A stretch of 64,000 nt of DNA from Candidatus Izemoplasmatales bacterium (GTDB lineage Bacteria; Bacillota_I; Bacilli_A; Izemoplasmatales; Hujiaoplasmataceae), in NCBI GenBank assembly GCA_050949045.1, contig JBMNEZ010000001.1, forward strand, positions 108,716 through 172,715. Direction: 5' to 3'. The notes under the pieces are model-generated. The model made no database searches and was not told where the DNA came from. It was given only the letters and a program-made list of their open reading frames with translations. The stretch's first letter is position 1, and each line of letters opens with the position of its first letter. The translations under genes and the position numbers were made by a program. This document shows, piece after piece, positions 1 to 21,824 of this stretch.

Positions 1-3000
1 CTGTGTTTTTCTCTTTTGCTTCTAGGAGCGGGGAGCGTATATGCGACAGTATACAATCACCATTTCTATGGCGAAGACTGGACATGGAGTCCTTCTGCTA
101 AAAGTGCTGAAGAAGCCAAGGCCAATGCAATTAAGGTTGCAGAGCAAATCGCTGCTGAAGGCCAGGTACTTTTAAAGAATGAGAATAGTACCTTGCCTCT
201 TAGTGGAGATGAATGGCTGACTGTTTTTTCTACTACCAGCACAAAAGATTTAGCTTCTTACATTTCCGGTATAGAGGCTGGAGGCTTTAAGGTACACAGT
301 ACGACCTCAACCGATGTAAGCAAGTACACTCCAAGCGATATGCGCGCACATAGTTCCAGCGATGTAGCTGTAATTATTATGAGTGGAGAAGCTGAATCAA
401 AAGGCGATTTCTTTAGTCCTGGTCCTTTTGGTGGCGGTGGTGGAGAAGGCGGATCTACAGCTAGCCTTGTCGAACCGGAAGACAATAAGGATGCTTATGG
501 CAATACTTACAAGCTTCCTAGCGGAAAAGATTTCGTACACAGGTTTTCTCCGATGAAAAAGGTAGGAGAAGAGACAGTAGCATACAAACACAGTTTACAA
601 CTTCAAAACAAAGATGAAGAAATTATTAAGTATGCTAAAGACAATTTTAAAACAGTCATTGTTTTGCTTCAAAACGATATACCTACCGAAATCGGCTCGC
701 TTAAAATTGATCCTGGCATTGATGCCATTCTACTCGCGGGGCGTTTAGGAAATTACGGACATGAGCAAATAGGCTATGTTTTAAACGGCTCAGTTAACCC
801 CTCTGGGAGAACGGTAGACCTTTGGGCATGGGATCATTCAGGGCGTCCTTCTTGGTTCAACGACGGGAATACTAACAATATTTTCAGAAATGCAACTCAA
901 GAAAGCGAATCAGATGTTTCGAATATGGGAATCACATCAGCGTTCCGTGTTGGTGAAGGATCTATATATTATGAGAGATCAGAGGCGTATTCTAAAGCCG
1001 ATGATGAAACATATCCATATTATAAGAGAAGACCGCACGCTACAGGTGAAATTACTCCTCACGTATTTACTGTGCAGTATGAAGAGGATATTTACACTGG
1101 ATACCGTTACTATGAAACCGCCGCAACAGAGGTAGCTTTGGGCAATTATGCCGCAGCTGGTTACGGCATCGACGGCGAAGCTTTTTATTACGATTCGGTT
1201 ATCTATCCTTTCGGTTACGGGCTCAGTTATACCTCATTTGAATGGGAAGTAGTGAGTTCAGACCTTAGCGAATGGGCCAGAGTTTTGGCTTCTGAAAGCT
1301 CAAGCATCAATTTCCAAACCGGCGAAATAACCGTTAAGGTAAAAGTTACCAACGTTGGTTTGGTACCGGGCAAGGACGTAGTGGAAATTTACGGACACGC
1401 ACCATATTACAAGAATGGTGTTTCTAAAGCGGAACACGTACTTGTAGGCTTTGAAAAAACTGGAATAATCCAGCCTGGTAAATCGCAGGTAGTTACTGTT
1501 TCTGTAAACGTTCAAGATCTTGCTTCGTATGATTACCTTGATGCTAACGGAAACGGCAACACAGGCTATGAGCTTGATAAAGTCGCAGATGCCGACTCAA
1601 AAGGCAACCCCTTACATGATAGCACTGGTAAATACCAGCTCCGTCTCATGAAAAACAGCCATGAATATGGCAATGACGATGCGGCTGAAATGACGATTGA
1701 TCTTGCTAGCCCTTCGAGAGATTATTTCCTTAAACTCGATGACTTCACAGGAAACAGCGTCGACAATTTGTTCTCCGGAAAAGACATAAACAACACACTC
1801 GGATATGATCCAGGGACAGGTAAAACGCTGGTTGAAGAAGGCAAAATGACGATCCTAACCCGTGCAGATTTTGCAGGAACTTGGCCTCAGGCTGCGGGAA
1901 CCACCACAGGTCCTAGCGGCGAAGAAAAAGGCTGGGATCTCGTAAGAAGCGACGAATATTACACTATGATTTCTGAGTTCGCTGATTACAACGGAGAAAA
2001 TTGGCAAGAGTTTTATAAGATAGTAAATAACGTAGAAACAATTCCTGCTGAAATAACAAATGAAGATAAAGCCGGTTTTGCTTGGTCTATTGACGCAGCA
2101 GAATTTGCAACGCTTACAACGGCTAAATACACACCTGAAGGCGGCACAGAACAAACAATTAATTGGGTACAAAGAGACCCAGCTGCCAATCTTTCTGAAC
2201 TTCAAGAAAGCGATGATTGGCTGTGGTTTGCTGACATGATCAAGTATGAGTACAATGACGGTGGTATTGGCACATACATGTGGACCAAGTTTATGAACCA
2301 GCTGACCTACAACGAGATGGTAGAATGGGTTACTAACGGTGGCAGAAGGACATCGGCCATTGATTCAGTAGGTAAGAGAGCGGCGGAATATGTGGACTCC
2401 AGTATAAGAATGGGAGGCACAAACCAAATTAGTTATGGTTATAATTCTGTTTCTAGCCGCACTTGGAATAAGGAACTTGCAAAGAAGAGAGGCATATGCA
2501 TCGGCGAAACTGCTCTCTTTGATGGAAAAGAGGCATGGTATGCACCGGCATGCGACTTACACCGTAGCCCGTTTGCAGGTCGTAACGACGAGTATTGGTC
2601 AGAAGACGGTTTCTTCTCAGGCTGGATGGCAGGCAGCGTGCTTGCGGGCACTCAGTCCACAGGAGTAATTTGTACCATCAAGCACTTTGCTCTCAATGAA
2701 AGCGAGAACATGAGACAAAGCTTACATACATACCTTTCTGAACAAACTTTCCGTGAGCTGTATCTACCCGCATTCAAAATTTGTATGCAAGAATGCGGTG
2801 CACAAGGTGTAATGACTGCATATAACTGTATTGGTGATATGCACGCATCTTCAGCTTACAATTTCCTTGTTGGTATGACCGAAAAAGAATGGGGCTTCGA
2901 CGGCTTCAATATTTGTGACGCTGCCGATCCTTGGAAAGACTTCTACACTCATGACATGAGTCTCCGCTCAGGCGGGACGATGTTCCTATGCGATTGGAGA

Positions 3001-4152
3001 GCATCCAAAGAATATACTCCCGGTGATAAAGGGAACCTTGTTCAACTTTATCCTACTGGTGTATATAACGTAACTGATAACAAAGTCTATGTTAGAGAAA
3101 ACGGTCAAGTAAAAGATTCTCCTGTAACGGTAGAATCATACACCAGCTGGTATTGGCTGCGATATCAAGTAATGCGTTCACTGTTTGTGGAAGCAAACAG
3201 CAATATCGCCAATAACGGCCTTAAACTTGACAACTTCAAGGATGCTACCTTGGCTGATGGAGCACAAGCGGTGGCCTATACAGCTAATATTGGGCTTGAA
3301 GGCGCAGATGCTTCTATTAGTACTTACACAGTAACTAGCGGCGCATTACCCAAAGGCTTATCAATTTCTAACGCCGGTGCGGTTACAGGCACTCCCACCG
3401 AAGCAGGCGAGTTCACATTTAAGGTTAAATTCGTAAACGGATACTGGATTACAAAAGAAGCTACTTTCAATTTAACTGTGACCCCTTGCTTTACGATTGG
3501 TAGCGAAACTGAATTGAACGCTTTAGAAGTTGGCGCTGCTTTTGAAGGCTATATTGAATCAGAAGTAATTAAGATTGATGATACCTATACTTCCATAACA
3601 TATGAACTTGCTCAAGGAAGCGCACTGCCCGAAGGGCTTACACTTTCAAAAACCGACGGCTTGATTTCGGGTACGCCTACGGTTCCGGGAACTTATAGTG
3701 TTACGTTTAATATAACACCTAAAAAAGCATCATCCGGCGGTGGTGGCGGCGGCTTCCCATGGGGTCCACGTCCAGGCAGCAGTTCAACTGTTTACAATTA
3801 CACGGTCACTTTCGTTGTAACCGGAGATCCAATTGTTGAACCTAGCGGTCCCTTCTTCAGAATTGTTGATGGATTTGTTGAATATTCTGAAGATAACGAA
3901 ACTTGGGTACAAGTAATTGAGGTATCCGAACTGCAAGGCGACAAGGGCGACAAGGGCGACAAGGGCGATAAAGGTGACAAGGGCGACAAGGGCGATGCTG
4001 GCGCAGCTGGTCCTGCCGGTCCTGCCGGTCCTGCTGGAAAAGATGCAGAACCGGTAAGCGGATGCGGAAGCTCGCTAACCGGAACCGGAATCCTCGTTAC
4101 CGGATTGCTGTCTCTCGGAGTACTATTCTTAAAACGCAGGAAGTCTGATTAA
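1..4152 (+). CDS. Giant secreted GH3-family glycosidase A (5'-partial): permuted GH3 core, 2 He_PIG-type Ig domains, collagen-like stalk, Cys-containing C-terminal sorting signal
   Basis: Frame 1 is open from nt 1 (LCFSLLLLGAGSVYA/T looks like the end of a signal peptide), so the real start lies upstream and the track's TTG at 16 is internal. GH3 motifs occur in reversed order. First LLKNENSTLPL and NPSGRT (alpha/beta-sandwich domain). Then [12 protein letters not shown] and GKDVVEIY (Fn3-like). Then HRSPFAGRNDEYWSEDG, KHFALNESE and WGFDGFNICDA (barrel domain). Two LP.GL...G.(V/I)(T/S)GTPT units, (G-X-Y)12, and the terminus PVSGCGSS + TM + KRRKSD. Confidence 0.85.
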   Translation: MCFSLLLLGAGSVYATVYNHHFYGEDWTWSPSAKSAEEAKANAIKVAEQIAAEGQVLLKNENSTLPLSGDEWLTVFSTTSTKDLASYISGIEAGGFKVHSTTSTDVSKYTPSDMRAHSSSDVAVIIMSGEAESKGDFFSPGPFGGGGGEGGSTASLVEPEDNKDAYGNTYKLPSGKDFVHRFSPMKKVGEETVAYKHSLQLQNKDEEIIKYAKDNFKTVIVLLQNDIPTEIGSLKIDPGIDAILLAGRLGNYGHEQIGYVLNGSVNPSGRTVDLWAWDHSGRPSWFNDGNTNNIFRNATQESESDVSNMGITSAFRVGEGSIYYERSEAYSKADDETYPYYKRRPHATGEITPHVFTVQYEEDIYTGYRYYETAATEVALGNYAAAGYGIDGEAFYYDSVIYPFGYGLSYTSFEWEVVSSDLSEWARVLASESSSINFQTGEITVKVKVTNVGLVPGKDVVEIYGHAPYYKNGVSKAEHVLVGFEKTGIIQPGKSQVVTVSVNVQDLASYDYLDANGNGNTGYELDKVADADSKGNPLHDSTGKYQLRLMKNSHEYGNDDAAEMTIDLASPSRDYFLKLDDFTGNSVDNLFSGKDINNTLGYDPGTGKTLVEEGKMTILTRADFAGTWPQAAGTTTGPSGEEKGWDLVRSDEYYTMISEFADYNGENWQEFYKIVNNVETIPAEITNEDKAGFAWSIDAAEFATLTTAKYTPEGGTEQTINWVQRDPAANLSELQESDDWLWFADMIKYEYNDGGIGTYMWTKFMNQLTYNEMVEWVTNGGRRTSAIDSVGKRAAEYVDSSIRMGGTNQISYGYNSVSSRTWNKELAKKRGICIGETALFDGKEAWYAPACDLHRSPFAGRNDEYWSEDGFFSGWMAGSVLAGTQSTGVICTIKHFALNESENMRQSLHTYLSEQTFRELYLPAFKICMQECGAQGVMTAYNCIGDMHASSAYNFLVGMTEKEWGFDGFNICDAADPWKDFYTHDMSLRSGGTMFLCDWRASKEYTPGDKGNLVQLYPTGVYNVTDNKVYVRENGQVKDSPVTVESYTSWYWLRYQVMRSLFVEANSNIANNGLKLDNFKDATLADGAQAVAYTANIGLEGADASISTYTVTSGALPKGLSISNAGAVTGTPTEAGEFTFKVKFVNGYWITKEATFNLTVTPCFTIGSETELNALEVGAAFEGYIESEVIKIDDTYTSITYELAQGSALPEGLTLSKTDGLISGTPTVPGTYSVTFNITPKKASSGGGGGGFPWGPRPGSSSTVYNYTVTFVVTGDPIVEPSGPFFRIVDGFVEYSEDNETWVQVIEVSELQGDKGDKGDKGDKGDKGDKGDAGAAGPAGPAGPAGKDAEPVSGCGSSLTGTGILVTGLLSLGVLFLKRRKSD
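3937..4044 (+). repeat. Collagen-like (G-X-Y)12 tract; first six triplets are a 9-bp GGCGACAAG-type tandem repeat
   Basis: In-frame [36 protein letters not shown] read directly from the sequence. Confidence 0.9.
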
Positions 4153-4283
4153 CAAAAGAAACAAGCAATAAAGATTTTAAGACAATAGAAAGAATCAATT
4201 AAGCAGGCGGATATGTTGGGATTATTCTTTAATGCGCGGTAAAATATCGTTGTGATAAAGAATATCCCAACATTATCCGTTAT
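3967..4283. repeat. Arm A of a 317-bp near-identical inverted repeat (partner 21825-22141)
   Basis: The reverse complement of 21825-22141 aligns base for base (x+y=26108). I found 2 substitutions by eye. The repeat covers the last collagen triplets, the sorting signal, the stop codon and 131 bp of intergenic DNA including a hairpin. Confidence 0.9.
4213..4273 (+). promoter_or_regulatory. Intercistronic stem-loop (18-19 bp stem, 24-nt loop) between giant GH3 A and its lipoprotein gene; possible partial terminator or RNA-stability element
   Basis: ATGTTGGGATTATTCTTTA (4213-4231) pairs with TAAAGAATATCCCAACAT (4256-4273) with one bulged T. There is no clean T-tract after it. Confidence 0.45.
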
Positions 4284-4311
4284 TGTCAAATATTTGGAGT
4301 AAGTGTAAATA
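4283..4311 (+). promoter_or_regulatory. Candidate sigma-A promoter for lipoprotein A / GH3 A'
   Basis: TTGTCA, 17-nt spacer, TAAATA, located ~70 nt upstream of the ATG at 4380. Confidence 0.3.
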
Positions 4312-4379
4312 TTGTTTGAAAAAGCATTATTATGTTTGTATGCGACTATGTAAACGACAAAATAAATGTGAGGAAATCT

Positions 4380-5810
4380 ATGAAACAAAAAAAGATGGCA
4401 ACAACGCTCTTATCGTTTTTTCTGCTTTTTGTATTAGCATTGACCGTAGCTTGCACGAATTCTACGACGACGCAGCTTAGCATTACCTTTGATTTGAACT
4501 ATGAAAATGCTACTAGTCTGACGCAAAAAGTTTCTTACGGCGAATATCCCACAAAACCTGCTGATCCTCAAAGAGCAAAGTACGCCTTTTTAGGCTGGTA
4601 CAGTGATAAAGATTTCCAACAGGAAGCAGATTTTGGCCAAGCCATTTCTACCAATGTAACATTTTATGCAAAATGGGAACTAAGACAAGTAACAGTTATT
4701 TTTGATTATAACTATCCCGGCTCGGCTTCATCTAACCTTGATATAGACATTGGCGGTAATGCATCACGTCCGAAATCGCCCACGAGAGAAAACTACTTGT
4801 TTATCGGCTGGTTTACCGATGCCGAAGGAAATGATGAATTCGATTTTGATATTACCCTAATGGAAGACATTACTGTTTATGCAAAGTGGGAAGAGGTAAA
4901 TAATTCTGTTCACGAGCATGTCGATGCGGATAATGACAATATATGCGATGAATGCGGGGAACCGATTTCTGCTCATGAGCATATTGATGCGAATAATGAC
5001 AATATATGTGATGAATGCGGTAAAAAAATTGACGATAACATTATAACGTTAACATATTTTTGGAATTATGAAGGTGCTCCTGATAATGGAGTGTATGACA
5101 CAATTTATATGACCAAGAATAGAAAACCAAGCAAAATTAAAGCCAATCGGGATGGTTATTTTTTCTACGATTGGTTTACCGACCAAGAACTTACAAACAG
5201 GTTTGACATAAATGAAAGAGTAAATGAGGATATGACTTTGTATGCGTGCTGGTATTCAATTTACACCTTTGAAGCAGAGTATACATATCTTGAAGAAATG
5301 GAAGGTCTAGGATATTCGGGTGATGCGTCTGGACTTAATGTGATAGAGCCTGATCATTACTCAATGAATGCCAGCAACGGCTATTATGTTGGCTGGCTGT
5401 TTAATCCCGGACTTACAATAGAGTTCAACTTGACTTGCTCCGAGAGTACGGATACTGCTCATCTGGCGCTGAGGCTCAGCGCAGAGTTTCAGGATCTGAT
5501 ACTTAATTGGAAAGAGTTTACCGTTCAGGTGAATGGCACTAATTTGGTGTATGACGATATTTATTTTCTCAATGTTCCTGATGGTTCGGCAGATACAAAA
5601 CGTCCATTTACTACGCACATCGTATCTAATAGAGTAACCCTTAACGAAGGTGAAAATGTTATTAAACTGATAGTAAGCAACGAAAACAAGGGCGAGGGCG
5701 GCACAATGAGGGCTTCTGCGCCTATGGTAGACTGCATAATAATTTATTCTGACGCTCTAGTTGAATGGGGCGAAGGTTATCCCTTGACCGATAATCTCGA
5801 TGGCAGATAA
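4380..5810 (+). CDS. Surface lipoprotein A: Listeria-Bacteroides (InlB B-type) repeats plus C-terminal CBM6/35-like beta-sandwich
   Basis: I prefer the start at the second in-frame Met (GAGGAA, 5 nt, ATG). Signal peptide MKQKKMATTLLSFFLLFVLALTVAC with a lipobox Cys. Three F.GW(Y/F).D...F......(V/I)T.YA.W repeats. C-terminal YTFEAEY...VQVNG...LNEGENVIKL...VDCIIIY. Confidence 0.8.
   Translation: MKQKKMATTLLSFFLLFVLALTVACTNSTTTQLSITFDLNYENATSLTQKVSYGEYPTKPADPQRAKYAFLGWYSDKDFQQEADFGQAISTNVTFYAKWELRQVTVIFDYNYPGSASSNLDIDIGGNASRPKSPTRENYLFIGWFTDAEGNDEFDFDITLMEDITVYAKWEEVNNSVHEHVDADNDNICDECGEPISAHEHIDANNDNICDECGKKIDDNIITLTYFWNYEGAPDNGVYDTIYMTKNRKPSKIKANRDGYFFYDWFTDQELTNRFDINERVNEDMTLYACWYSIYTFEAEYTYLEEMEGLGYSGDASGLNVIEPDHYSMNASNGYYVGWLFNPGLTIEFNLTCSESTDTAHLALRLSAEFQDLILNWKEFTVQVNGTNLVYDDIYFLNVPDGSADTKRPFTTHIVSNRVTLNEGENVIKLIVSNENKGEGGTMRASAPMVDCIIIYSDALVEWGEGYPLTDNLDGR
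4911..5036 (+). repeat. 2 x 63-bp tandem repeat encoding HEH(V/I)DA.NDNICDECG
   Basis: HEHVDADNDNICDECGEPISA followed by HEHIDANNDNICDECGKKIDD, read in frame. Confidence 0.85.
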
Positions 5811-5826
5811 TTGAGGAGAAGTGCTA

Positions 5827-8769
5827 ATGATTTTTAAACGCTTATTAGAAAAAAAACCATCGCGTTTTTGGTTTATATTCACGGTTATTATCAGCGTATT
5901 AATGATTGCAATCAATGCTGTCGCCATTTATTGGAGCGGTATAATCAGCATTGCATTACGCGGTGATATAGCGCACAAGGCGGAAAATGCCGAGGATGCA
6001 GTGGTGTATTACGAAAAAAGCACCTCAAGCAAGGATGAAGCTAATGCCCAAGCGCAAAGCATTACGCAAAGGATTGCCGAAGAGGGCTTTATTTTGTTGA
6101 AAAACGACAACGCCTTGCCTTTGAAAAAATCTGCGCAAGTGTCCGTCTTTGGCAAAAACTCTGTTAATCTCGTTTATGGCGGCTCGGGCTCGGGTGGTGG
6201 CGACGCTACGCTTCCAAAAAAGACGCTTTATGAAAGTCTTACATCACAGGGGATTGTTTTTAATCCAGTACTGAAAGCGTTTTACGAGGATAACACTCTA
6301 TCGGGACCCGGTAGAGAAAGTAATTCCGGCGACTTAGACAGTGGCGATACAGTCACTATTGGAACTGGAGAAACGCCACAAAGCAGTTATACCAACACTG
6401 TCAAGAACAGTTATGCAGATTATGCGGACGCGGCCATTGTCGTTTTTTCAAGAGTTGGCGGCGAAGGCTTTGATTTGCCTATGGTAGGCGCCAACGGCGC
6501 AAGGCATTATCTTGATTTAGATACAAATGAAAGAGACTTGCTTGAAAGTGTTTGTGCATCTGACTTTGAACATGTAATTGTTGTTCTCAACACTTTAAAC
6601 ATAATGGAAACAGGCTTTTTAAATGAATATGACGGAAAAATAGATGCCTGTATTTGGATTGGAGGACCAGGTTCAACAGGGATTATGGCCTTGGGGAGAA
6701 TACTTGACGGTACTGTTACTCCTTCAGGCCATACAACCAACACATGGCCCTATGATTTTAAAAAAGATCCTACTTGGAATAATTTTTCTGAAAGAGGAAT
6801 ATCAAAAGGTGACATCTATTTTAACACCGAAACGAACAAAAACACAGCGTATAACTACGTAAATTATGAAGAAGGAATTTATGTCGGTTATCGTTATTAT
6901 GAGACGCGCGCTGCACAGGAACGTGAAAAAAACGGAAACGATAATTGGTATATAGAAAACGTTGCATTTCCATTCGGTTATGGGTTAAGTTACACCACTT
7001 TTAAATGGGAATTGACAAATAGTCAAAGCATAGATGGTGTTAAAATAAATAAGAATGGAAATTACTCAGTAACAGTCAATGTAATTAATACAGGTTCTTA
7101 TAAGGGCAAGGAAGTAGTTCAAATGTATGCAAAACTTCCTTATACAGCAAATGGTGTAGAGAAACCTTATGTGGTTTTGTGCGGTTATGCAAAAACAGAT
7201 ATGCTGTACCCTACCGCTGAAAAAGCAATTAATGCAGAAGAGGCAGCGGGAAATAAAAAGCCAAATTCCCAAAAAATCACGATCACGTTTTCGCCTTATG
7301 ATATCGCTTCTTACGATTACAGCAAAAAAAGCGGTCACGAAGGATACATAATTGAAAGTGGTGCTTATGAGCTCTTGTTGTGCAGCGATGCACACACAAG
7401 CAAGTTTTCTGTGCCGTTTAGTGTCGAAGATGACATTGTTTACGAAAACGATCCCATAACAAATACAAGAGTAGTCAACAGATACACCAATTGCGCAGAC
7501 AGTGCTTTCAATTCGGATACGATGATTGCGGACTTCCAAATGAGCAGAAATGACTTATCTATCCTACCGGATGCGTATCAGGACGCCGACAGACAAGTTA
7601 CAACTGAGTTTATCAACTTAATTGCAGACTTAACGCATAATAATCCAAACGCCGCCGGTATTACTGAAATGCCTAAACAAGGTAAGGTTGCAACAATGGA
7701 TTTGGCGGGAGTGTTACAATATGACGCGGCAACCCAGACTTACTACGCAAACTACGATGACAATGCGAGTTGGGATGTTATTCTAGATGCTGTTTCTATC
7801 AACTCCATGCTAAATATGTATAACACCGCTGCATTTAAAACTAACAAGATCGATAACATTAACAAGCCTCAGACACTCGAATCCGACGGACCTGTGGGAT
7901 GGTGTAATTTCATTTCGCTTACTGATCCAACTTGGAAAGGAAACAATGTTTATACCTCACAGGTTGTTATGTCCGCAACATGGAATGTCGATTTAATCGA
8001 GGAAATGGGCAAATGCGTAGGGGAAGAAGGCTTATGGGGCGCAGTTAACTCCGATGGTCGCCCTTACAGCGGCTGGTATGCGCCTGGAGTGAATATCCAT
8101 CGCTCGCAATTTGGCGGTAGAAACTTTGAGTATTTTTCTGAAGATAGCTATTTGACAGGCACAATGGGCGCAGCGGAAATAAAAGGCTGCCAGTCAAAGG
8201 GCGTTTATTGCTATGTGAAGCATTTTGCGGTAAACGAACAGGAAACTCATCGAATGGGGGCCTGCAACTGGCTTACCGAGCAGGCTTTGCGTGAACTGTA
8301 TCTAAAACCGTTTGAGATAGTGGTCAAGCAGGGAAAAACAAGAGCCATGATGTCCAGCTTTACACGTATAGGAACAAGATGGACAGGCGGAGATTATAGG
8401 CTTTTGACAGAGATATTACGTGACGAATGGGGATTTAGAGGCACAGTTATTTGCGATTACAATGCGACAAGCAATTTTATGAATTGTAGACAAATGGTAT
8501 ATGCAGGCGGAGATTTAAATCTTTGTTCCTCCATTAGTAAGCAATGGAATGACTTTGACAGTACATCTGCCGTAGATGTAACAATGTTGAGAAACGCAAC
8601 AAAAAATGTGCTCTATACTGTGGCCAACTCAAACGCTATGAATAGTCTAAGCTATTATTACACGCTCGCTACATGGAAGATTTGCCTTATTGTGGCAGAT
8701 GTTTTGACTGTGTTGGGTCTTGCAGTATGGGGAATTCTAGCCATTCGCAAATCACGTAAAATGCTTTAA
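5827..8769 (+). CDS. Doubly membrane-anchored (N- and C-terminal TM) permuted GH3 glycosidase A'
   Basis: I prefer the ATG at 5827 (GAGGAG 8 nt upstream) over the track's GTG at 5821. N-terminal TM FWFIFTVIISVLMIAINAVAIYW. Motif order: LLKNDNALPL, VGGEGFDL, TPSGHT, then [12 protein letters not shown] and GKEVVQMY, then SDGPVGW, HRSQFGGRNFEYFSEDS, KHFAVNEQETHR, WGFRGTVICDYN. C-terminal TWKICLIVADVLTVLGLAVWGILAIRKSRKML. Confidence 0.85.
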   Translation: MIFKRLLEKKPSRFWFIFTVIISVLMIAINAVAIYWSGIISIALRGDIAHKAENAEDAVVYYEKSTSSKDEANAQAQSITQRIAEEGFILLKNDNALPLKKSAQVSVFGKNSVNLVYGGSGSGGGDATLPKKTLYESLTSQGIVFNPVLKAFYEDNTLSGPGRESNSGDLDSGDTVTIGTGETPQSSYTNTVKNSYADYADAAIVVFSRVGGEGFDLPMVGANGARHYLDLDTNERDLLESVCASDFEHVIVVLNTLNIMETGFLNEYDGKIDACIWIGGPGSTGIMALGRILDGTVTPSGHTTNTWPYDFKKDPTWNNFSERGISKGDIYFNTETNKNTAYNYVNYEEGIYVGYRYYETRAAQEREKNGNDNWYIENVAFPFGYGLSYTTFKWELTNSQSIDGVKINKNGNYSVTVNVINTGSYKGKEVVQMYAKLPYTANGVEKPYVVLCGYAKTDMLYPTAEKAINAEEAAGNKKPNSQKITITFSPYDIASYDYSKKSGHEGYIIESGAYELLLCSDAHTSKFSVPFSVEDDIVYENDPITNTRVVNRYTNCADSAFNSDTMIADFQMSRNDLSILPDAYQDADRQVTTEFINLIADLTHNNPNAAGITEMPKQGKVATMDLAGVLQYDAATQTYYANYDDNASWDVILDAVSINSMLNMYNTAAFKTNKIDNINKPQTLESDGPVGWCNFISLTDPTWKGNNVYTSQVVMSATWNVDLIEEMGKCVGEEGLWGAVNSDGRPYSGWYAPGVNIHRSQFGGRNFEYFSEDSYLTGTMGAAEIKGCQSKGVYCYVKHFAVNEQETHRMGACNWLTEQALRELYLKPFEIVVKQGKTRAMMSSFTRIGTRWTGGDYRLLTEILRDEWGFRGTVICDYNATSNFMNCRQMVYAGGDLNLCSSISKQWNDFDSTSAVDVTMLRNATKNVLYTVANSNAMNSLSYYYTLATWKICLIVADVLTVLGLAVWGILAIRKSRKML

Positions 8770-8950
8770 TGATGACTAGTCAATAGGATAGCGACAAATC
8801 ACTTGCGAAAGCATAGGGAATACAACTGTGTCATCAATAACCCAAGATTATGAAACATTATGCAATTAGAATATATGAACTGACAATATTAAATAATTTT
8901 AATAATAGGTTATTTTCGTATTTCCATGCTTTTGATGAACTTACATGATG

Positions 8951-8981
8951 ATAAAGCCCTCCCGATTAAGGAGGGCTTTAT
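8951..8981 (+). terminator. Stem-loop downstream of GH3 A'
   Basis: ATAAAGCCCTCC, loop cgattaa, GGAGGGCTTTAT (12-bp GC-rich stem). The downstream T-tract is weak. Confidence 0.5.
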
Positions 8982-9268
8982 GATACAAAATTTACATTTT
9001 CATTGAATACTTTCGACACTACACATTATTGGATAATATACAAACAATACTACATAATCAATTCGAATACGTAAATATTAACCCTATGTTGGAATAAGTT
9101 TTACTGGATTTGTATTGATAAATTTCTTTCAAAACGTCCGCAACACATATTATTCACTCAATAATATATTTAATCATGAACAATGTTTTTTATCTTGATT
9201 TGTATATCTGTTTGCTAAATTGAGCTATTTTTTAGATGGCAATACTTGTATACTGTTTTTTAATTACG

Positions 9269-9277
9269 TGCTATAAT
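9269..9277 (+). promoter_or_regulatory. Extended -10 element (TGcTATAAT) upstream of the symporter gene
   Basis: TGCTATAAT lies 35 nt upstream of the ATG at 9312. No good -35 at 17-nt spacing. Confidence 0.35.
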
Positions 9278-9311
9278 ACAGTAAACTTTTGAAACACTAC
9301 TGGAGGTATTT

Positions 9312-10730
9312 ATGTTTCTTTCAACTTTTCAAAACAGCAACTATTTTTACTGGCAATTGGTTATCCAATTTGGGATTGTATCGTTAATGTTACTGATTGC
9401 CAATATTATCCGACGAAAAGTTAAAGTATTCAGGAATTTGTTGTTTCCTACCGCTATCATAGCGGGGTTTATCGGATTAGGCGTCAAGTATCTGATTTTT
9501 GGATTAGATGTTCAAATTGACGGACAATTGATATTGACCAATGATTTTTTAGAAGCGGTTACCTATCATACCATTGCGCTCGGATTTATTTCTATGGGAT
9601 TAAAAAGTTTCAAAGATGAAAGCACCAAAAAATATAATGGCAAACCTTTTAAAACGGGTTTGGTTATCGTAAACACATATTTACTACAAGGTATTGTTGG
9701 TGTAGCCATAACGATAATCCTGTCCTATATATTTGTCGAAATAGCTCCTTTTGCCGGATTGCTTTTACCAATGGGCTATGGACAAGGGCCGGGACAGGCA
9801 GCCAATATCGGCGGTTTATTTGAAGAAAACGGTTTTGTCGGTGGGAAGTCATTTGGATTGTCTATTGCGGCCTTCGGCATTCTTTGGGCTTGCACAGCCG
9901 GGATCTATTATATCAATAAAAGATCTAAGGAAGGGAAAATCCAACGAGCTGACGAAGAAATCGCCCAAGTAGTCTCGGCTGAAGAAATCGAATCAATAGA
10001 TGAAATTCCTGTTAGTGAAGCGATTGACAAAATGAGTATTCAAATCATTTTGATCAGTGTCACATATGCTTTGAGTTTTCTATTTATGAAAACAGTAACG
10101 ACATTAATCAACATTAAGGAAGTTACCGGATTAATTTGGGGCTTTAACTTTATTTTTGGAATGCTCTTCGCTATGTTTGTCAAGATGATTTTGAAGGGCC
10201 TAAGAAAAAGCAAACTGATGAAGCGTAAATATACAAACGAATATATGTTAAACCGGATTACCGGTGTGGTATTTGACTATATGATAGTTGCCGGTATTAT
10301 GTCAATCAATATCGAAGTGCTCGCAAATACTGGTTTATGGGTTGGATTGCTGGTAATCACGACCGTTGGGGGCATTTTAACTTACCGTTACTTGCGTTAT
10401 ACGGTCAAGAGAATATACCCGGATTACGAACATCAAGCATTTGCGGTTCTGTTTGGAAATTTAGCCGGGACCGCTTCGAATGGCATCGCTTTATTGCGAG
10501 AAATCGATCCTGATTTTAAAACGCCGGCAGCGGATGACTTAGTCACCGGTTCTTCAACAGCCGTTTTGTTTGGTGCGCCGCTATTGGCGATCACAGCATT
10601 GATATATCAGCCTAAATGGTATTACCTGTGGGGCTCTTGGGTCGTAATGATCATCTTTTTTGTACTTTTTTCTTTCTTACTGTTCAAGAAGCCCGCTAAA
10701 ACGAAAAAGGCAAAAAAACAAACTGATTAA
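9312..10730 (+). CDS. GltS/ESS-family sodium:glutamate-type symporter (putative)
   Basis: Polytopic membrane protein. The layout and local motifs resemble E. coli GltS as I recall it: an N-terminal helix then a basic loop (IIRRKVKVFRNLLFPTAIIAGFIGLG), a central GQGPGQAANIGGLFEE region and a C-terminal GNLAGTASNGIALL. GGAGG ribosome-binding site. Confidence 0.55.
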   Translation: MFLSTFQNSNYFYWQLVIQFGIVSLMLLIANIIRRKVKVFRNLLFPTAIIAGFIGLGVKYLIFGLDVQIDGQLILTNDFLEAVTYHTIALGFISMGLKSFKDESTKKYNGKPFKTGLVIVNTYLLQGIVGVAITIILSYIFVEIAPFAGLLLPMGYGQGPGQAANIGGLFEENGFVGGKSFGLSIAAFGILWACTAGIYYINKRSKEGKIQRADEEIAQVVSAEEIESIDEIPVSEAIDKMSIQIILISVTYALSFLFMKTVTTLINIKEVTGLIWGFNFIFGMLFAMFVKMILKGLRKSKLMKRKYTNEYMLNRITGVVFDYMIVAGIMSINIEVLANTGLWVGLLVITTVGGILTYRYLRYTVKRIYPDYEHQAFAVLFGNLAGTASNGIALLREIDPDFKTPAADDLVTGSSTAVLFGAPLLAITALIYQPKWYYLWGSWVVMIIFFVLFSFLLFKKPAKTKKAKKQTD

Positions 10731-10750
10731 TATACTGCAATTGATTAACA

Positions 10751-10787
10751 AAATCCGAGTGAAGTGTTTTCATTCGGATTTTTTTGA
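10751..10787 (+). terminator. Rho-independent terminator of the symporter gene
   Basis: AAATCCGAGTG, loop, CATTCGGATTT, followed by TTTTTGATTT. Confidence 0.7.
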
Positions 10788-10853
10788 TTTCAAGTGGTCG
10801 GAGTTGACGACCATTGCGAAAAGCGTGGATCACAAAGAATGGAGTCCGAAACT

Positions 10854-10889
10854 AAAAAAAGTCTGTGGAATGAACATCAACGGCCACAG
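10854..10889 (-). terminator. Terminator of the oxidoreductase gene
   Basis: On the minus strand: CTGTGG, 16-nt loop, CCACAG, then ACTTTTTTT. It begins 10 nt after the stop codon. The stem is short. Confidence 0.45.
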
Positions 10890-10898
10890 GCATTTTAT

Positions 10899-11864
10899 TT
10901 ATTCAAAAGGGTATTTAAGTTTGATCAACTTACGTATCTGGTCGAGATAAGACATTGATTCTCTCGATGCTTCATGAGTCATGATTGGATCTTCCAACAA
11001 GCCGTTTTCGATATCATCCGCAAACGCGATAATTTCATGGACAAAACCGTCGCCTTTATAAGGGATTGTGATTTTTTTGCCATCGATGGATACTACTTGA
11101 CAGCCGAAAAATCTTTTAAGTTCGATGCAGGAGTTGCTGTACTCCAGTCTGGCTTTGTTTGAGAGGAACCTTTTCATACTGGAGCGAAGTCTGATTTTTG
11201 CATCGTTTTCATCGGTAATGAGGACGTCGCATTCGGAGTCTACTCCGGTTTTGGTGAATGCGGCGCTTGCGACAATGGTTTTCACCGGCACTTTCTTCAC
11301 ATAGTTATACAGGCTGAGATTATATACTCCCAAATCGAGCAGGCTTCCTCCTGCCAGATCAGGGTTCATCAGCCTTTTTTTAGGAGAACTGAACAGGGCC
11401 AAGGGATGACCAAACTCAATGGTTGCCTTTTTGAGATCGCCAAGTTTTCCGGAATCAACCAGACTTTTCACATATTTTACAGCAGGGAGAAACCTTGTCC
11501 ACAGCGCTTCCATTATTAAGACATTGTTCGTTTTGGCTGCTTTGATTAGTTCTTCATATTGATGTAGATTGACGGTGATCGGTTTCTCGACGAGGACATG
11601 CTTTTTGTTCTTGATGAACAACAAAGCCAGCTCATAGTGGAAGGTATGAGGCGTTGCGATGTATGCCGCATCGATGACATCGCTTTTTGCCATATCCGAG
11701 TAACTGGAGAATGCATGTTCGAGACCAAGCGCTTTTTTGTATGCTTCAGCCTTATCGATTGTCCGCGAAGCAACAGCGGTTATCACGGCGTTATCGACCA
11801 ACTTGATATCTTTGCAGAATCTCTTGGCGATTCCGCCGGCACCGACGATACCGAATCTTACCAT
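10899..11864 (-). CDS. Gfo/Idh/MocA-family NAD(P)-dependent oxidoreductase
   Basis: I moved the start to MVRFGIVGAGGIAKRF (GGAGGA 6 nt upstream). Rossmann GxGxxA motif, and EKP motif (VLVEKPITV). Confidence 0.8.
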   Translation of the reverse strand: MVRFGIVGAGGIAKRFCKDIKLVDNAVITAVASRTIDKAEAYKKALGLEHAFSSYSDMAKSDVIDAAYIATPHTFHYELALLFIKNKKHVLVEKPITVNLHQYEELIKAAKTNNVLIMEALWTRFLPAVKYVKSLVDSGKLGDLKKATIEFGHPLALFSSPKKRLMNPDLAGGSLLDLGVYNLSLYNYVKKVPVKTIVASAAFTKTGVDSECDVLITDENDAKIRLRSSMKRFLSNKARLEYSNSCIELKRFFGCQVVSIDGKKITIPYKGDGFVHEIIAFADDIENGLLEDPIMTHEASRESMSYLDQIRKLIKLKYPFE

Positions 11865-12076
11865 TAGACGTCCTCCGTTTAGAATTGACTTTTTTACAGA
11901 AAAGCCAATATGCATAATCAAACGATGATTTTTTGTTTCTGTGATAGAGCATACCAAAGATGGTTTGACAGATATTATTTTATGCGAATTCATCGAAATG
12001 CACAATATCAATGAAAGGATTTCCGTAAACCGTTGACGGTAGTTTATCTGATCTTATGCCAAAGTCAATAAATGAA

Positions 12077-12085
12077 TGGTATAAT
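12077..12085 (+). promoter_or_regulatory. Extended -10 element (TGgTATAAT) upstream of the CPBP gene
   Basis: TGGTATAAT lies ~155 nt upstream of the ATG at 12243, in the divergent intergenic region. Confidence 0.35.
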
Positions 12086-12242
12086 TTACATATATGTGAA
12101 AGATTACGACTCTCTGTTATAGTGCATATTGACTAATAAAAGTTATTGGCACTGACTGATTTCTCCGTATCAGTTTCTATATACTGTAATCTCTCGTTTT
12201 TCAACTGTATATGGTTTCATCGCGTGTTTTGGAGGAAGACAG

Positions 12243-13046
12243 ATGGCAAACTTGATTAAACACAAGAAAATCTTGATAATTCTCACATCATTATTCATTT
12301 TGGTGATCCTGGCGAGCCAATTTTTGCGATTGACGTTCTTTACCGATGATCTGACAAAGAAAATGGCCAATGATATTTCTATTAGGCTGGGCATGGGATT
12401 GATATTCTTGTTTATGATGTATTACATGGGGTATTGTCTTTTCAAAAAACCCGGGAAATCGTGGATACAATTACTTTTTGTTTTGATTCCGGGTTTATTA
12501 ATATCCATAAACAACTTTCCGATAAGCGCTTATTTGTCATCGCGAACCACTTTAACCGAGCCAATCCATACTGTCTTTTTTTATGCGGTTGAGTGTTTGG
12601 CAATCGGCTTTTTTGAAGAAACGGTTTTTCGAGGAGTTATTCTGTTGGTTTTGTTACAGAGGTTGCCGCAAACCAAGCGCGGAAGTTTCATGGCGATCAT
12701 TGTTTCCTCGGCTCTTTTCGGCTTGACTCATCTTTTCAATTTGTTTGTTGGGGCGGCAGTTCCAGACACGTTGATTCAAGTGGGATATTCTTTTTTGATG
12801 GGGGCTATGTGGAGTGTGATATATATTGCGACAGAAAACTTGCTGTTCCCCATCCTGCTTCATGCATCCTACAACTTTTTCGGAGAGGTGTTGTTTCGCC
12901 TGGGAACCGTATCAAACCGGTTTGATTTTCCGACCATACTGGTCACTTCCATTTTGGCAGTTTTGGCAATCATGGCATATTCGCTTGTTTTCTGTAAAAT
13001 CAAACAAGAGGATCTTGCCAATATCGGCGCAAGCGATTCCCGGTAA
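12243..13046 (+). CDS. CPBP-family (CAAX/Rce1-like, Abi) glutamic intramembrane endopeptidase
   Basis: All three signature motifs occur in order inside TM helices: FEETVFRG (EExxxR), FGLTHL (FxxxH) and HASYNF (HxxxN). About 7-8 predicted TM segments. GGAGGAAG ribosome-binding site. Confidence 0.85.
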   Translation: MANLIKHKKILIILTSLFILVILASQFLRLTFFTDDLTKKMANDISIRLGMGLIFLFMMYYMGYCLFKKPGKSWIQLLFVLIPGLLISINNFPISAYLSSRTTLTEPIHTVFFYAVECLAIGFFEETVFRGVILLVLLQRLPQTKRGSFMAIIVSSALFGLTHLFNLFVGAAVPDTLIQVGYSFLMGAMWSVIYIATENLLFPILLHASYNFFGEVLFRLGTVSNRFDFPTILVTSILAVLAIMAYSLVFCKIKQEDLANIGASDSR

Positions 13047-13297
13047 TCGATTGTATCGCTACTGCAAATTGACTAATTTGTCTTTTGGTATGGGCAATTA
13101 TTTGTGAAACAAAATACCGCCATATGTATGAATATTCCCTTTGGGGTCGCCTAAAAATGTTATAATATTGTTAGAGAATTATTTGTAATGGCGATCATGG
13201 GAAATGAAAATAATCCGCTAACGATTCAAAAGAAGAATCATAATATTCTTTATTCTTATATGTGAACATATAGGACAGGACAAAGGAGCCGCAACAA

Positions 13298-14611
13298 ATG
13301 AATTTGACAAATAATTACAAACACTTGGCAATTGACATTGGAGCGAGCGGGGGAACTGCAGTTGTCGGATCTAGCGGTTCTGATCGGCAAAAACTGCTTG
13401 AGGTATACCGCTTTAACAACCAAATGGAAAATTCGGATGCTGGACTGGTATGGAATATCAACCATCTTTTCAAAGAAATCCTGACAAGCATCAAGATCGC
13501 TTCTGAAAAATATCCCGATCTCAAATCCGTAGGAATTGACACGTGGGGAGTCGACTACGTTTTAATGAACGGCGATGAACCGTTACTTCCGGTCTATGCT
13601 TATCGAAATGACAGGACAAAGAGCGTGATCGATGAAGTACATGGCATTATCCCCTTTGAAAAATTGTATGGCATGACGGGCTGCCAGTTCCAAAGGTTCA
13701 ATACCCTGTATCAGCTATATGCGGACAAACAGGCAAATCGCCTTGAAAAAGCAAGCGACTTTCTGATGTTGCCTGACTATTTCTATTACAGACTGACAGG
13801 TATAAAAACACATGAGTATACCAATGCAACGACGACCGGAATGGTTAACCCCTTAACCGGAGAATTTGATCAAGATCTTGTTCGGACATTGGGAATGCCG
13901 AAGCGCTTGTTTCCGAAAATCACGCAACCAGGATTATGTCAACCGGTCAGGAAAGAATATTCAAAAACAGGCTTAATTTCGGTTCTAGTCGCAACTCATG
14001 ACACCGCAAGCGCCGTTGAATCCCTTGATATTTCCGGCAACACGATTTATATTTCAAGCGGAACTTGGTCTTTGATTGGTGTCAAGAGAGACAAGCCGAT
14101 CCGCTCCGAACAAGCCATGAAAAGCAACTTCACAAATGAAGGCGGGCTTGGCTACACCCGTTTTCAAAAAAATATCATGGGGCTTTGGATAGTGCAGGAG
14201 TTGAAGAGAGAATTCAATATTGAAACCTATGAAGAGATGGTCCGACTGGCTAAGATGAGCTGTTATCAGAAGACCTTTGATGTGAATGACTCTCGTTATC
14301 TATCTCCGAAATCAATGTATCGAGAAATTGAGATGGAGTTAAGAAAGCGCTATGACAAATCACCGGAAAACAAAGGAGATATCATCAATTCCGTCTTCCA
14401 CAGCTTGGCAAAATGCTATTCGGTGGCTGTCGAGGAAATTGAAACCATCACCGGGAAGAAATACGATTCCATCATCATTTTTGGCGGAGGAGCCAAAAAC
14501 AATTATCTCAATTCCTTGGTTGAAAACTACACTAAAAAAACAGTCAATGCGTATCCGATAGAAGCGTCAGCTCTCGGCAACATAAAAATACAAAGTGAAG
14601 TGATAAAATGA
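13298..14611 (+). CDS. rhaB: Rhamnulokinase (FGGY family)
   Basis: N-terminal LAIDIGASGG and DTWGVDYV FGGY motifs. AAAGGAG ribosome-binding site. 4-nt ATGA overlap with rhaA downstream. Confidence 0.8.
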   Translation: MNLTNNYKHLAIDIGASGGTAVVGSSGSDRQKLLEVYRFNNQMENSDAGLVWNINHLFKEILTSIKIASEKYPDLKSVGIDTWGVDYVLMNGDEPLLPVYAYRNDRTKSVIDEVHGIIPFEKLYGMTGCQFQRFNTLYQLYADKQANRLEKASDFLMLPDYFYYRLTGIKTHEYTNATTTGMVNPLTGEFDQDLVRTLGMPKRLFPKITQPGLCQPVRKEYSKTGLISVLVATHDTASAVESLDISGNTIYISSGTWSLIGVKRDKPIRSEQAMKSNFTNEGGLGYTRFQKNIMGLWIVQELKREFNIETYEEMVRLAKMSCYQKTFDVNDSRYLSPKSMYREIEMELRKRYDKSPENKGDIINSVFHSLAKCYSVAVEEIETITGKKYDSIIIFGGGAKNNYLNSLVENYTKKTVNAYPIEASALGNIKIQSEVIK

Positions 14612-15852: not shown

Positions 15853-15875
15853 GCAACCATCCATAGTACTATATT

Positions 15876-15916
15876 GCCCCGCAGAAGGTCTCAAGAATTT
15901 TTGCAGGGCTTTTTTA
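15876..15916 (+). terminator. rhaBA terminator
   Basis: GCCCCGCA, loop, TGCAGGGC (one mismatch), followed by TTTTTTATTT. Confidence 0.6.
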
Positions 15917-15954
15917 TTTAAAAAAGCAATTACCATGTAATTTATTACCAATTG

Positions 15955-15990
15955 AACAAAAAAGGAGAGTCAACCATGTAACTCTCCCTT
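15955..15990 (-). terminator. Terminator of module B (downstream of GH3 B')
   Basis: On the minus strand: AAGGGAGAGT, loop tacatggttg, ACTCTCCTT, then TTTTGTT. Confidence 0.7.
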
Positions 15991-16015
15991 AAAAATTCGA
16001 TTGAAGCCGATGTGA

Positions 16016-19090: not shown

Positions 19091-19091
19091 A

Positions 19092-19628: not shown

Positions 19629-19684
19629 AGTTCTCTCCCTTACATAAGCTTTTTACATTAAGAGACTGTAAAGCAAATAACGGT

Positions 19685-21802: not shown

Positions 21803-21824
21803 TGCATACTCCTTTATTTGACAA

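What the first reader, a model, noticed from the sequence alone, without database searches (positions are those of the whole stretch)
3967..4283. 317-bp near-identical inverted repeat joins the 3' ends of two otherwise diverged giant GH3 genes across 17.5 kb
3967-4283 is the reverse complement of 21825-22141, with only 2 substitutions that I can find. One of them is the V/I difference in the sorting signal. The repeat spans the last collagen triplets, the entire C-terminal signal, the stop codon and 131 bp of intergenic DNA including a hairpin. The remaining ~4 kb of the two genes is far more diverged. Either gene conversion keeps the anchor module identical, or the arms mediate inversion of 4284-21824. 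Inversion would leave both giant ORFs intact but swap their downstream lipoprotein and anchored-GH3 partners.
Basis: seen in the sequence. Interest (0 to 1): 0.62.

Follow-up and report, generated by a model that had tools for sequence, protein, structure and literature searches.

The report
Gene-conversion tract forming a 316-bp inverted repeat
About 330 bp, covering a membrane-anchor tail plus a regulatory hairpin, was copied from one surface-glycosidase operon onto a distant paralogue facing it, and this left the longest inverted repeat found in this small wall-less bacterium's genome, which may occasionally flip the 17.5 kb between the copies but shows no sign of being a dedicated switch.

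Summary
Window 3967-4282 is the reverse complement of 21826-22141: 316 nt with 2 substitutions. After a 1-nt indel, 11 more bases match. Identity collapses on both sides.

The two giant GH3 proteins are only about 30% identical elsewhere and are not each other's closest paralogues. The repeat is therefore a recent ectopic gene-conversion tract, not retained ancestry.

The donor can be named. The hairpin and the ribosome-binding-site context inside the repeat are conserved at the orthologous site of operon B (P0002 to lipoprotein 2) in two other Acholeplasmataceae species. Operon B was therefore copied onto operon A.

The window's orientation is ancestral. Evidence for this is paralogue co-phylogeny, two orthologous operons in other species, and three error-prone, probably long-read contigs.

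The predicted flipped junction (P0002 to lipoprotein 1) does occur in one JGI contig of the same strain. That contig has short-read-type (k=127) breakpoints, so it may be a wrong path through the repeat. Logan k=31 contigs cannot phase the repeat.

No invertase lies nearby and the genome has no serine recombinase. RecA is present.

Verdict: an ordinary conversion tract that passively creates an inversion substrate. Polymorphic inversion is possible (about 45%). A programmed switch is unlikely.

The parts
3967..4294 (+). Left arm (copy in operon A). The core is 3967-4282. A 1-nt indel at 4283 is followed by 11 more matching bases.
21814..22141 (-). Right arm (copy in operon B, the inferred donor). 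The core is 21826-22141. It ends immediately before the AAGGAG ribosome-binding site of the lipoprotein 2 gene.
1..4152 (+). Giant permuted GH3 'P0001' (operon A). Its 5' end lies 60 nt upstream of the window, and the full protein is 1403 aa. The last 61 codons lie in the arm.
21956..26566 (-). Giant permuted GH3 'P0002' (operon B, 1536 aa). The last 61 codons lie in the arm.
3967..4152 (+). Coding part of the arm. It holds the end of the collagen-like Gly-X-Y stalk and a Cys-containing C-terminal signal, (V/I)SGCGSS, followed by a TM helix and KRRKSD, then the stop codon. The differences are at 4002 (synonymous) and 4054 (Val/Ile).
4207..4280 (+). Intercistronic hairpin inside the arm, mirrored at 21828-21901 on the minus strand. 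There is no T-tract and no Rfam match. It is conserved, with compensatory changes, at the orthologous operon-B site in two other species.
4380..5810 (+). Lipoprotein 1 (476 aa, List_Bact repeats), the downstream partner in operon A.
5821..8769 (+). Doubly membrane-anchored GH3 of operon A (980-982 aa).
19685..21802 (-). Lipoprotein 2 (705 aa), the downstream partner in operon B.
16016..19628 (-). The 178-aa membrane protein (19092-19628) and the doubly anchored GH3 of operon B (16016-19114, 1032 aa).
4295..21813 (.). The 17.5-kb interval that would invert. It contains the downstream genes of both operons plus a transporter (9312-10730), a Gfo/Idh oxidoreductase (10899-12011, minus strand), a CPBP protease (12243-13046), rhamnulokinase (13298-14611) and rhamnose isomerase (14608-15852).

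Best explanation
The repeat is an ectopic, non-reciprocal gene-conversion tract of about 330 bp.

What was copied (shown). The 3' end of operon B's first gene was copied onto the equivalent position of operon A. The copied piece holds the last 61 codons, that is the end of the collagen-like stalk and the Cys-containing C-terminal membrane-anchor signal. It also holds the stop codon and the native intercistronic hairpin, running up to the ribosome-binding site of the next gene. Operon A is a distantly related paralogue that lies convergently, 17.5 kb away.

How the boundaries formed (inferred). The left boundary lies in triplet-repeat (GDK/GPA) DNA, where short homology is available. The right boundary lies at the end of operon B's intergenic spacer.

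Consequence (partly shown, partly inferred). The copy is the longest inverted repeat found in a streamlined 1.36-Mb genome that encodes RecA. It is therefore a passive substrate for homologous recombination. Further conversion patches and occasional crossovers are both expected. A crossover would invert the 17.5-kb interval. Both giant genes would stay intact, but their downstream lipoprotein and anchored-GH3 cistrons would be exchanged.

Orientation (shown). The window's orientation is ancestral and predominant. A flipped form may exist as a minority or sample-specific variant. No dedicated invertase is involved.
For: Tract and boundaries: 316 nt with 2 mismatches and abrupt edges.

The gene bodies are unrelated at the DNA level:
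- The giant proteins A and B are about 30% identical.
- Their lipoproteins are about 28% identical.
- Their TM-GH3 partners are about 30% identical.

A and B are not sister paralogues. Giant B and TM-GH3 B are each closest to module E. TM-GH3 A groups with modules C and D.

Donor is operon B:
- The hairpin, the AAATAAAGGAG ribosome-binding site and the start codon of the lipoprotein gene are conserved at the orthologous site in L049 (Acholeplasmataceae, OY775910.1) and L050. Three base pairs show compensatory changes.
- The tail GCGS(S/A)(L/I)(T/N)GT resembles the tail of the L050 orthologue.
- In operon A the tract is followed by an extra 85 nt of unrelated leader.

The duplication is specific to this species. 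The relatives have the tail once per genome and no inverted repeat at the locus.

The window's orientation is ancestral:
- Orthologous operons read giant, then a 713/710-aa lipoprotein, then a 175/178-aa protein, then a 1034/1025-aa GH3.
- Error-prone, probably long-read contigs show the same orientation. These are JGI 3300053716 and the two ENA ERZ2647912 contigs, one across each junction.

A flipped junction, P0002-arm-lipoprotein 1, occurs in JGI 3300064082 contig Ga0591956_0003554. It is 100% identical to the window on both sides. It carries the P0002-type SNPs near the gene and the lipoprotein-1-type indel state at the far end.

Recombination machinery: RecA is present. There is no serine recombinase in the genome. 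The only tyrosine recombinases are two Xer-sized genes far away. No recombinase lies in the window.

Hints of repeated exchange:
- Paralogue E shares a 93-nt, 89%-identical patch at the same stalk/anchor junction.
- The B-arm carries Ile (A at 4054) in the window strain, but G (Val) in a noisy contig of a diverged strain (L077).
- The A-arm is C at 4002 in the window but T in L048, L081 and L076.
Against: - The flipped orientation rests on a single contig. Its ends, and those of its neighbours, fall where a k=127 de Bruijn graph would branch (4175/4181 = 4054+127; arm coordinate 4163, near 4283-127). It could therefore be a wrong path through the 228-nt identical core.
- All evidence that is probably long-read shows only the window's orientation.
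- Logan contigs (k=31, SNP bubbles popped) cannot phase the arms. They therefore cannot prove either ongoing conversion or inversion.
- Divergence between the arms (0.6%) is similar to divergence between strains (0.5-1%). A single old event followed by purifying selection is therefore not excluded.
- The mechanism that made the first copy between sequences with little flanking homology is inferred, not shown.
Confidence: 0.62

Rival explanations
1. A one-off historical conversion only. The arms have no ongoing role, the interval never inverts at a detectable rate, and the flipped JGI contig is an assembler error at an inverted repeat.
For: Four junction traversals on error-prone, probably long-read contigs, plus the complete genome, all show the window's orientation. 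The flipped contig has short-read k=127-type breakpoints. The sister sample 3300060804 is simply unresolved at the arm. Arm divergence (0.6%) is about equal to strain divergence.
Against: Assemblers that use read pairs normally stop rather than guess at a fork. A traversal from P0002 to lipoprotein 1 therefore suggests that some read pairs support it (inference from general knowledge of metaSPAdes). Alleles at 4002 and 4054 differ between strains in a way that fits extra conversion patches. RecA and 316 nt of homology make zero recombination implausible.
Confidence: 0.3
2. A selected, phase-variation-like invertible segment. Frequent flipping reassigns the downstream lipoprotein and anchored-GH3 cistrons between two operons that are each preceded by their own LytTR two-component system. 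Identity of the arms is maintained because the switch is useful.
For: Both orientations keep all ORFs intact. Each giant gene is preceded by its own HATPase_c_5/LytTR pair. One contig shows the flipped state in a strain with zero SNPs relative to the window. The arm ends exactly at the ribosome-binding site of lipoprotein 2.
Against: There is no invertase in the window or near it, and the genome has no serine recombinase. The arms are 316 nt, not the short sites typical of invertons. The relatives lack the repeat altogether. All probably long-read evidence shows a single orientation.
Confidence: 0.06
3. The identity is retained from the original duplication by strong purifying selection on the anchor module, with no conversion.
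For: The anchor signal and the hairpin are functional elements, conserved in kind across nine orthologues.
Against: Synonymous sites and 130 nt of non-coding spacer are also identical. The rest of both operons is at about 30% amino-acid identity. Orthologous tails in other species are only 42-46% identical. A and B are not sister paralogues.
Confidence: 0.01
4. The repeat is an assembly artefact, that is a collapsed or duplicated sequence in the window's genome.
For: None found.
Against: The arm is seen with four distinct flanks in several independent runs, at about twice the flank depth in X1 and X2. It is also seen in independent JGI, ENA and NCBI contigs.
Confidence: 0.01

Closest known systems
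tufA/tufB of Salmonella and E. coli: inverted paralogues homogenised by RecA-dependent gene conversion, which also generates chromosomal inversions. Sources are Hughes 2000 (J Mol Biol 297:355) and Abdulkarim & Hughes 1996, both cited in PMC6735719, and the conversion-kinetics study PMC5485169.
   Same: Both involve two copies in inverted orientation on one chromosome. In both, near-identity includes synonymous sites. The same homologous recombination can give a non-reciprocal patch or an inversion of the interval. No dedicated recombinase is involved.
   Different: Here only about 330 bp at the 3' end plus intergenic DNA is homogenised, between genes that are otherwise about 30% identical. 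The interval is 17.5 kb rather than hundreds of kb. Inversion would re-pair the cistrons of two operons. Ongoing conversion and RecA dependence are not demonstrated.
Site-specific invertible segments that swap gene 3' parts or downstream cistrons: the phage Mu G segment (Gin), the R64 shufflon (Rci), and Mycoplasma pulmonis vsa/hsd inversions (from my own knowledge).
   Same: Inversion between repeats placed in or next to the 3' end of a constant gene exchanges what follows it. All reading frames stay intact in both states.
   Different: Those systems use short (about 20-35 bp) recombinase sites and an adjacent invertase gene. Here the arms are 316 nt, there is no invertase, and the coding sequence is unchanged apart from Val/Ile.
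Flip-flop isomers at long inverted repeats, as in chloroplast IRs, and the 69.9-kb inverted repeat of Lactobacillus crispatus (PMC12199158, abstract only).
   Same: Homologous recombination between inverted repeats gives orientation isomers of the intervening unique region. Short-read assemblies cannot phase these isomers.
   Different: The arms here are two orders of magnitude shorter, so the expected flip rates are far lower. Isomer coexistence is not shown.

Membership tests
Ectopic gene-conversion tract between paralogues | A near-identical segment with abrupt boundaries inside otherwise diverged paralogues | tested here: met
   316 nt at 99.4% identity, against about 30% amino-acid identity elsewhere
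Ectopic gene-conversion tract between paralogues | Identity extends to synonymous and non-coding positions | tested here: met
   130-142 nt of intergenic DNA is identical, and only 1 synonymous difference occurs in 61 codons
Ectopic gene-conversion tract between paralogues | Donor and recipient can be told apart from orthologues or other paralogues | tested here: met
   The hairpin and ribosome-binding-site context are orthologous to operon B of L049 and L050. Operon A has an extra, unrelated leader.
Ectopic gene-conversion tract between paralogues | Homologous-recombination machinery is present | tested here: met
   RecA at 460.8 bits
Ectopic gene-conversion tract between paralogues | Concerted evolution: strain-specific changes shared by both copies | tested here: inconclusive
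   The state of the B-arm at 4054 and of the A-arm at 4002 differs between strains. However, Logan contigs pop SNP bubbles, and the one phased B-arm comes from a noisy contig.
Site-specific invertible element (inverton, shufflon, Mu G segment) | An invertase (serine or tyrosine recombinase) is encoded adjacent to the element | tested here: not met
   No recombinase domain was found in the window ORFs scanned. No PF00239 match exists in the genome. The nearest PF00589 gene lies 18 kb outside the window.
Site-specific invertible element (inverton, shufflon, Mu G segment) | Short inverted recombination sites (tens of bp) | tested here: not met
   The arms are 316-328 nt of gene and spacer sequence
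Site-specific invertible element (inverton, shufflon, Mu G segment) | Both orientations coexist in a population | tested here: inconclusive
   One flipped contig stands against the window's orientation in all probably long-read data. No raw reads were available.
Inversion polymorphism driven by homologous recombination between inverted repeats (rrn/IS/tuf type) | Inverted repeats well above the minimal RecA processing length, on one replicon | tested here: met
   A 228-nt perfectly identical core lies within the 316-nt arms, which are 17.5 kb apart
Inversion polymorphism driven by homologous recombination between inverted repeats (rrn/IS/tuf type) | A recombinant junction with the flanking markers exchanged inside the repeat | tested here: inconclusive
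   The L044 junction has P0002-type alleles at 4002 and 4054 and the lipoprotein-1-type indel state at 4283. A k-mer path error would give the same pattern.

The most novel reading that the evidence does not exclude
In natural digester populations of this Acholeplasmataceae species, the 17.5-kb interval flips by RecA-mediated recombination at the 316-bp arms. The flipping is frequent enough that clonal (zero-SNP) populations differ in orientation between samples. Each flip re-pairs the downstream lipoprotein and anchored-GH3 cistrons with the other giant GH3 and its own LytTR two-component regulator. This would be operon partner-swapping without an invertase, made possible by a gene-conversion event that copied an anchor-plus-hairpin module between distant paralogues.
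Probability: 0.25. Interest if true: 0.55.

Novelty: new member of a known kind. Interest (0 to 1): 0.35.

Why it matters
This is a clean natural example of partial gene conversion moving a functional module between paralogues that share almost no DNA homology. The module comprises a stalk end, a C-terminal anchor signal and an intercistronic RNA hairpin. The donor and recipient can be identified from orthologues.

The locus also shows how such a patch creates the longest inverted repeat found in a streamlined genome, and with it a potential structural polymorphism that short-read assemblies cannot phase. For anyone using this genome or related MAGs, the practical message is that the orientation of 4295-21813 is assembly-dependent in short-read data.

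If the flipped form is real, it would re-wire which downstream surface enzymes follow which regulated promoter. The finding does not open a long-standing question.

Tried and rejected
1. Reads for the inversion. Three run searches returned only Logan contigs, with no Nanopore, PacBio or raw-read runs. Laying 10 runs showed that all contigs break at the arm edges and none has a strand-changing joint. This is uninformative, because k=31 contigs cannot cross a 228-nt identical core.

2. The Logan contig L042, which spans the right arm. I first read it as support for the window's orientation. I rejected that reading because a k-mer path has no phase.

3. Shared strain-specific SNPs in both arms (4093 in X5, 4203 in X11) as proof of concerted evolution. 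I rejected this for two reasons. Logan contigs pop SNP bubbles. In the noisy contigs of ERZ2647912, 4093T is on the B-arm only.

4. Arms in related species. There was no DNA match in 60 relatives beyond collagen-repeat noise. P0001 has no close orthologue (best 37-38% identity). A cross-species comparison of the arm pair is therefore impossible.

5. The metagenome-contig scan with an arm 39-mer gave only one contig, in the window's orientation and from a short-read-era assembly.

6. Rfam and terminator scans of the arm gave no family and no intrinsic terminator.

7. A mobile-element origin is rejected. There are no further copies in the genome and no transposase.

8. A recent inverted duplication of a whole operon is rejected by co-phylogeny. 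A groups with C and D, and B groups with E.
Full report
**Observation.** The repeat is real and sharply bounded.
- The repeat finder reports arms 3943-4282 / 21826-22165.
- A base-by-base comparison gives a core of 316 nt, 3967-4282 against the reverse complement of 21826-22141, with two mismatches. Position 4002 is C/T and is a synonymous Gly change. Position 4054 is G/A and changes Val to Ile.
- The right arm then carries one extra A, and 11 further bases match, to 4294/21814.
- Just upstream of the core, 32 of the 67 positions 3900-3966 mismatch. Downstream of 4294, similarity is lost.
- The tract contains 61 codons plus the stop codon of each giant gene and 130-142 nt of spacer. The spacer includes a hairpin of -40.8 kcal/mol (z = -6.15).

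**Not an artefact.**
- In four independent studies, short-read contigs break exactly at the arm edges. The arm contig has about twice the flank depth in the two identical-strain runs X1 and X2; it is about 1.3x in X3 and 1.2x in X5.
- Independent JGI, ENA and NCBI contigs contain the arms.
- A self-BLAST of the 1,356,138-bp single-contig genome (44.3% GC) shows this is its longest inverted repeat. The only other inverted repeat of 150 nt or more is 192 nt. All larger repeats are direct.

**Context.**
- The genome comes from anaerobic-digester and bioreactor metagenomes. Its nearest named relatives at this locus are Acholeplasmataceae MAGs.
- It carries five paralogous three-gene modules. Each reads: giant, circularly permuted GH3; then a List_Bact-repeat lipoprotein; then a GH3 anchored by TM helices at both ends.
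- Modules A (P0001, + strand) and B (P0002, - strand) converge on a central block. That block holds a transporter, a Gfo/Idh oxidoreductase, a CPBP protease, rhamnulokinase and rhamnose isomerase.
- Each module is preceded by its own HATPase_c_5/LytTR pair.

**Why it is a conversion tract.**
- The bodies of the paired genes are about 30% (giants), 28% (lipoproteins) and 30% (TM-GH3) identical.
- A and B are not sister modules. Giant B and TM-GH3 B are each closest to module E (738 and 724 bits). TM-GH3 A groups with C and D.
- A 99.4%-identical stretch that includes synonymous sites and spacer cannot be retained ancestry or the result of selection.
- Relatives have no such repeat. There were no DNA hits in 60 relatives, no inverted repeat in four orthologous loci, and one tail per genome.

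**Direction of the copy.**
- In L049 (OY775910.1) and L050, the orthologue of P0002 is followed by a spacer with the same hairpin: GGATATGTTnGGnnTATTCTTT, a loop, then AGAATATyCCrACAT. The same AAATAAAGGAGT ribosome-binding site and the ATG of the lipoprotein 2 orthologue follow it.
- Three base pairs in that hairpin change on both sides and stay paired.
- In the window, the right arm ends exactly at that ribosome-binding site. The left arm is followed by 85 nt of unrelated leader before lipoprotein 1.
- The tail in L050 (ATGCGSAINGT...) also resembles the arm's tail ([11 protein letters not shown]...).
- The tract is therefore native to operon B and was copied onto operon A.
- The left edge lies in GDK/GPA triplet repeats. 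Out-of-register matches abound there. In P0001, three extra GGCGACAAG units sit just outside the core.
- Paralogue E shares a 93-nt, 89%-identical patch at the same stalk/anchor junction and then diverges completely. This suggests an older exchange at the same spot.

**Which orientation is ancestral.**
- Orthologous operons in L049 and L050 read: giant, then a 713/710-aa lipoprotein, then a 175/178-aa membrane protein, then a 1034/1025-aa GH3. This is the window's arrangement.
- The co-phylogeny above also pairs P0002 with the 1032-aa GH3.

**Is the interval ever inverted?** I looked up contigs encoding the exact proteins.

| Data set | Contig | What it shows |
|---|---|---|
| JGI 3300053716 | Ga0534105_02241 (64.9 kb) | 0 mismatches and 7-8 indels against the window, which fits a polished long-read assembly. 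Shows P0002 followed by lipoprotein 2. |
| ENA ERZ2647912 | NODE_1028 | Coverage about 1 and 97% identity with many indels, so probably close to a single molecule. Collinear with window 1-14581. Comes from a diverged strain. |
| ENA ERZ2647912 | NODE_1650 | Same quality as NODE_1028. Collinear with window 30663 down to 18340. |
| JGI 3300064082 | Ga0591956_0003554 (41.5 kb) | Rha78-MFS-GH2-P0002, then the arm, then lipoprotein 1, the 980-aa GH3 and so on to lipoprotein 2. This is the flipped interval. |

The two ENA contigs each span one junction in the window's orientation.

The flipped JGI contig is 100% identical to the window on both sides. Its arm carries the P0002-type bases at 4002 and 4054 and the lipoprotein-1-type indel state.

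That assembly is of short-read type, which I infer from the contig breakpoints:
- The P0001 contigs end at 4175 and 4181 (4181 = 4054+127).
- The 41.5-kb contig starts at arm coordinate 4163, near 4283-127.
- MEGAHIT 'k127' contigs from another study start at 4156.

The identical core between the distinguishing sites is 228 nt. A correct join would therefore need read-pair support that I cannot inspect. In the sister sample 3300060804, the contigs simply stop at the arm.

Logan contigs (k=31) break at the arms in the runs with good coverage and cannot phase them. This includes the one contig that happens to run through an arm. No long-read or raw-read runs could be listed.

I rate the flipped form as real at about 45%.

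**Mechanism.**
- The ORFs scanned in the 64-kb window show no recombinase domain.
- The genome has no serine recombinase.
- It has only two Xer-sized tyrosine recombinases plus a fragment, none of them near the repeat.
- RecA is present.
- Arms of 316 nt are typical of homologous recombination, not of site-specific recombination.
- The closest described behaviour is that of the inverted tufA/tufB pair. There the same RecA-dependent exchange yields conversion patches and, with a crossover, an inversion (Hughes 2000, as cited in PMC6735719; PMC5485169).

**Ongoing conversion?**
- Across strains that are 0.5-1% diverged in the flanks, the arm shows 0-1 differences.
- The A-arm is C at 4002 in the window but T in L048, L081 and L076.
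- The B-arm is A (Ile) at 4054 in the window but G (Val) in the phased but noisy L077. The collapsed arm contigs of the diverged strains also read G there.
- These patterns fit additional conversion patches. They could also be single mutations.
- The apparent 'SNP shared by both arms' at 4093 turned out to be specific to the B-arm in the ERZ2647912 contigs.
- I therefore leave ongoing homogenisation open.

**Verdict.** The inversion reading is mechanistically sound and matches one public contig, but it is unverified and is not a programmed switch. This is a new example of a known kind of event and is of modest interest.

Noticed in passing
window 4045-4149 and 21959-22063; 44671-44772; genome 1346900-1347027; loci L049-L057: All giant GH3 orthologues in nine species, and four of the five paralogues here, end in a small-residue-Gly-Cys-(G/A/S)-(G/S)-(S/I) motif, then a TM helix and a basic tail. 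This resembles a lipobox placed at the C-terminus. There is no NCBIfam hit above cut-off (LPXTG_anchor scores 15.4 against a cut-off of 15.9, on the TM helix and tail only). Paralogue D (genome 509189) instead has an N-terminal lipobox followed directly by collagen-like repeats, which is the mirror arrangement.
   Followed up: partly
window 12243-13046: A CPBP/Rce1-like intramembrane protease lies inside the invertible interval, between the two operons. Its best NCBIfam hits are myxosortase-type models (MrtJ, MrtS, MrtZ, Mrt_core), but all fall far below cut-off (E about 1e-5 to 1e-6). Lgt is also in the window (59640-60485).
   Followed up: partly
window 4207-4280 / 21828-21901; L049 14414-14490; L050 10152-10232; L051-L057 downstream of the giant gene: A strong intercistronic hairpin without a T-tract sits between the giant GH3 gene and the lipoprotein gene in every orthologue examined. 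The sequence turns over between clades (TTCTCCGG...CCGGAGAA in the 'Christensenella'-labelled and Bacilli MAGs), but the position and the stem strength are kept. There is no Rfam family.
   Followed up: partly
genome 1346836-1346928 (module E) against window 22038-22130: A 93-nt patch, 89% identical, links paralogues E and B at the stalk/anchor junction ([25 protein letters not shown]). Total divergence follows it. This is likely an older conversion at the same hotspot.
   Followed up: partly
window 22121-22700: The collagen-like region of P0002 is hypervariable between strains. X5 and X9 show 31-33 differences and indels in about 460-580 nt, against 0.5-1% elsewhere. X11 and X6 carry insertions of 9 nt and 27 nt of GDK units.
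   Followed up: no
window 50901-53425 and 56979-59508: A 2.5-kb direct repeat at 98.7% identity covers the two cytoplasmic (canonical-order) GH3 genes, 6 kb apart. This is a second, much larger homogenised or recently duplicated pair in the same window.
   Followed up: no
window 1-49716; genome 509189-518029 and 1342450-1351901: The genome has five, not three, paralogous modules of giant GH3, lipoprotein and doubly anchored GH3. In all of the membrane and surface copies the GH3 domains are circularly permuted (GH3_C and Fn3-like before the GH3 N-terminal barrel).
   Followed up: partly
window 4261-4289 (minus strand) and 21818-21847 (plus strand): A promoter-like site scoring 10 of 12 (TTGACA, 17-18 nt spacer, TG-GATATT) sits at the far end of each arm and points back into the giant gene's 3' end (antisense). 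This is a consensus match only.
   Followed up: no
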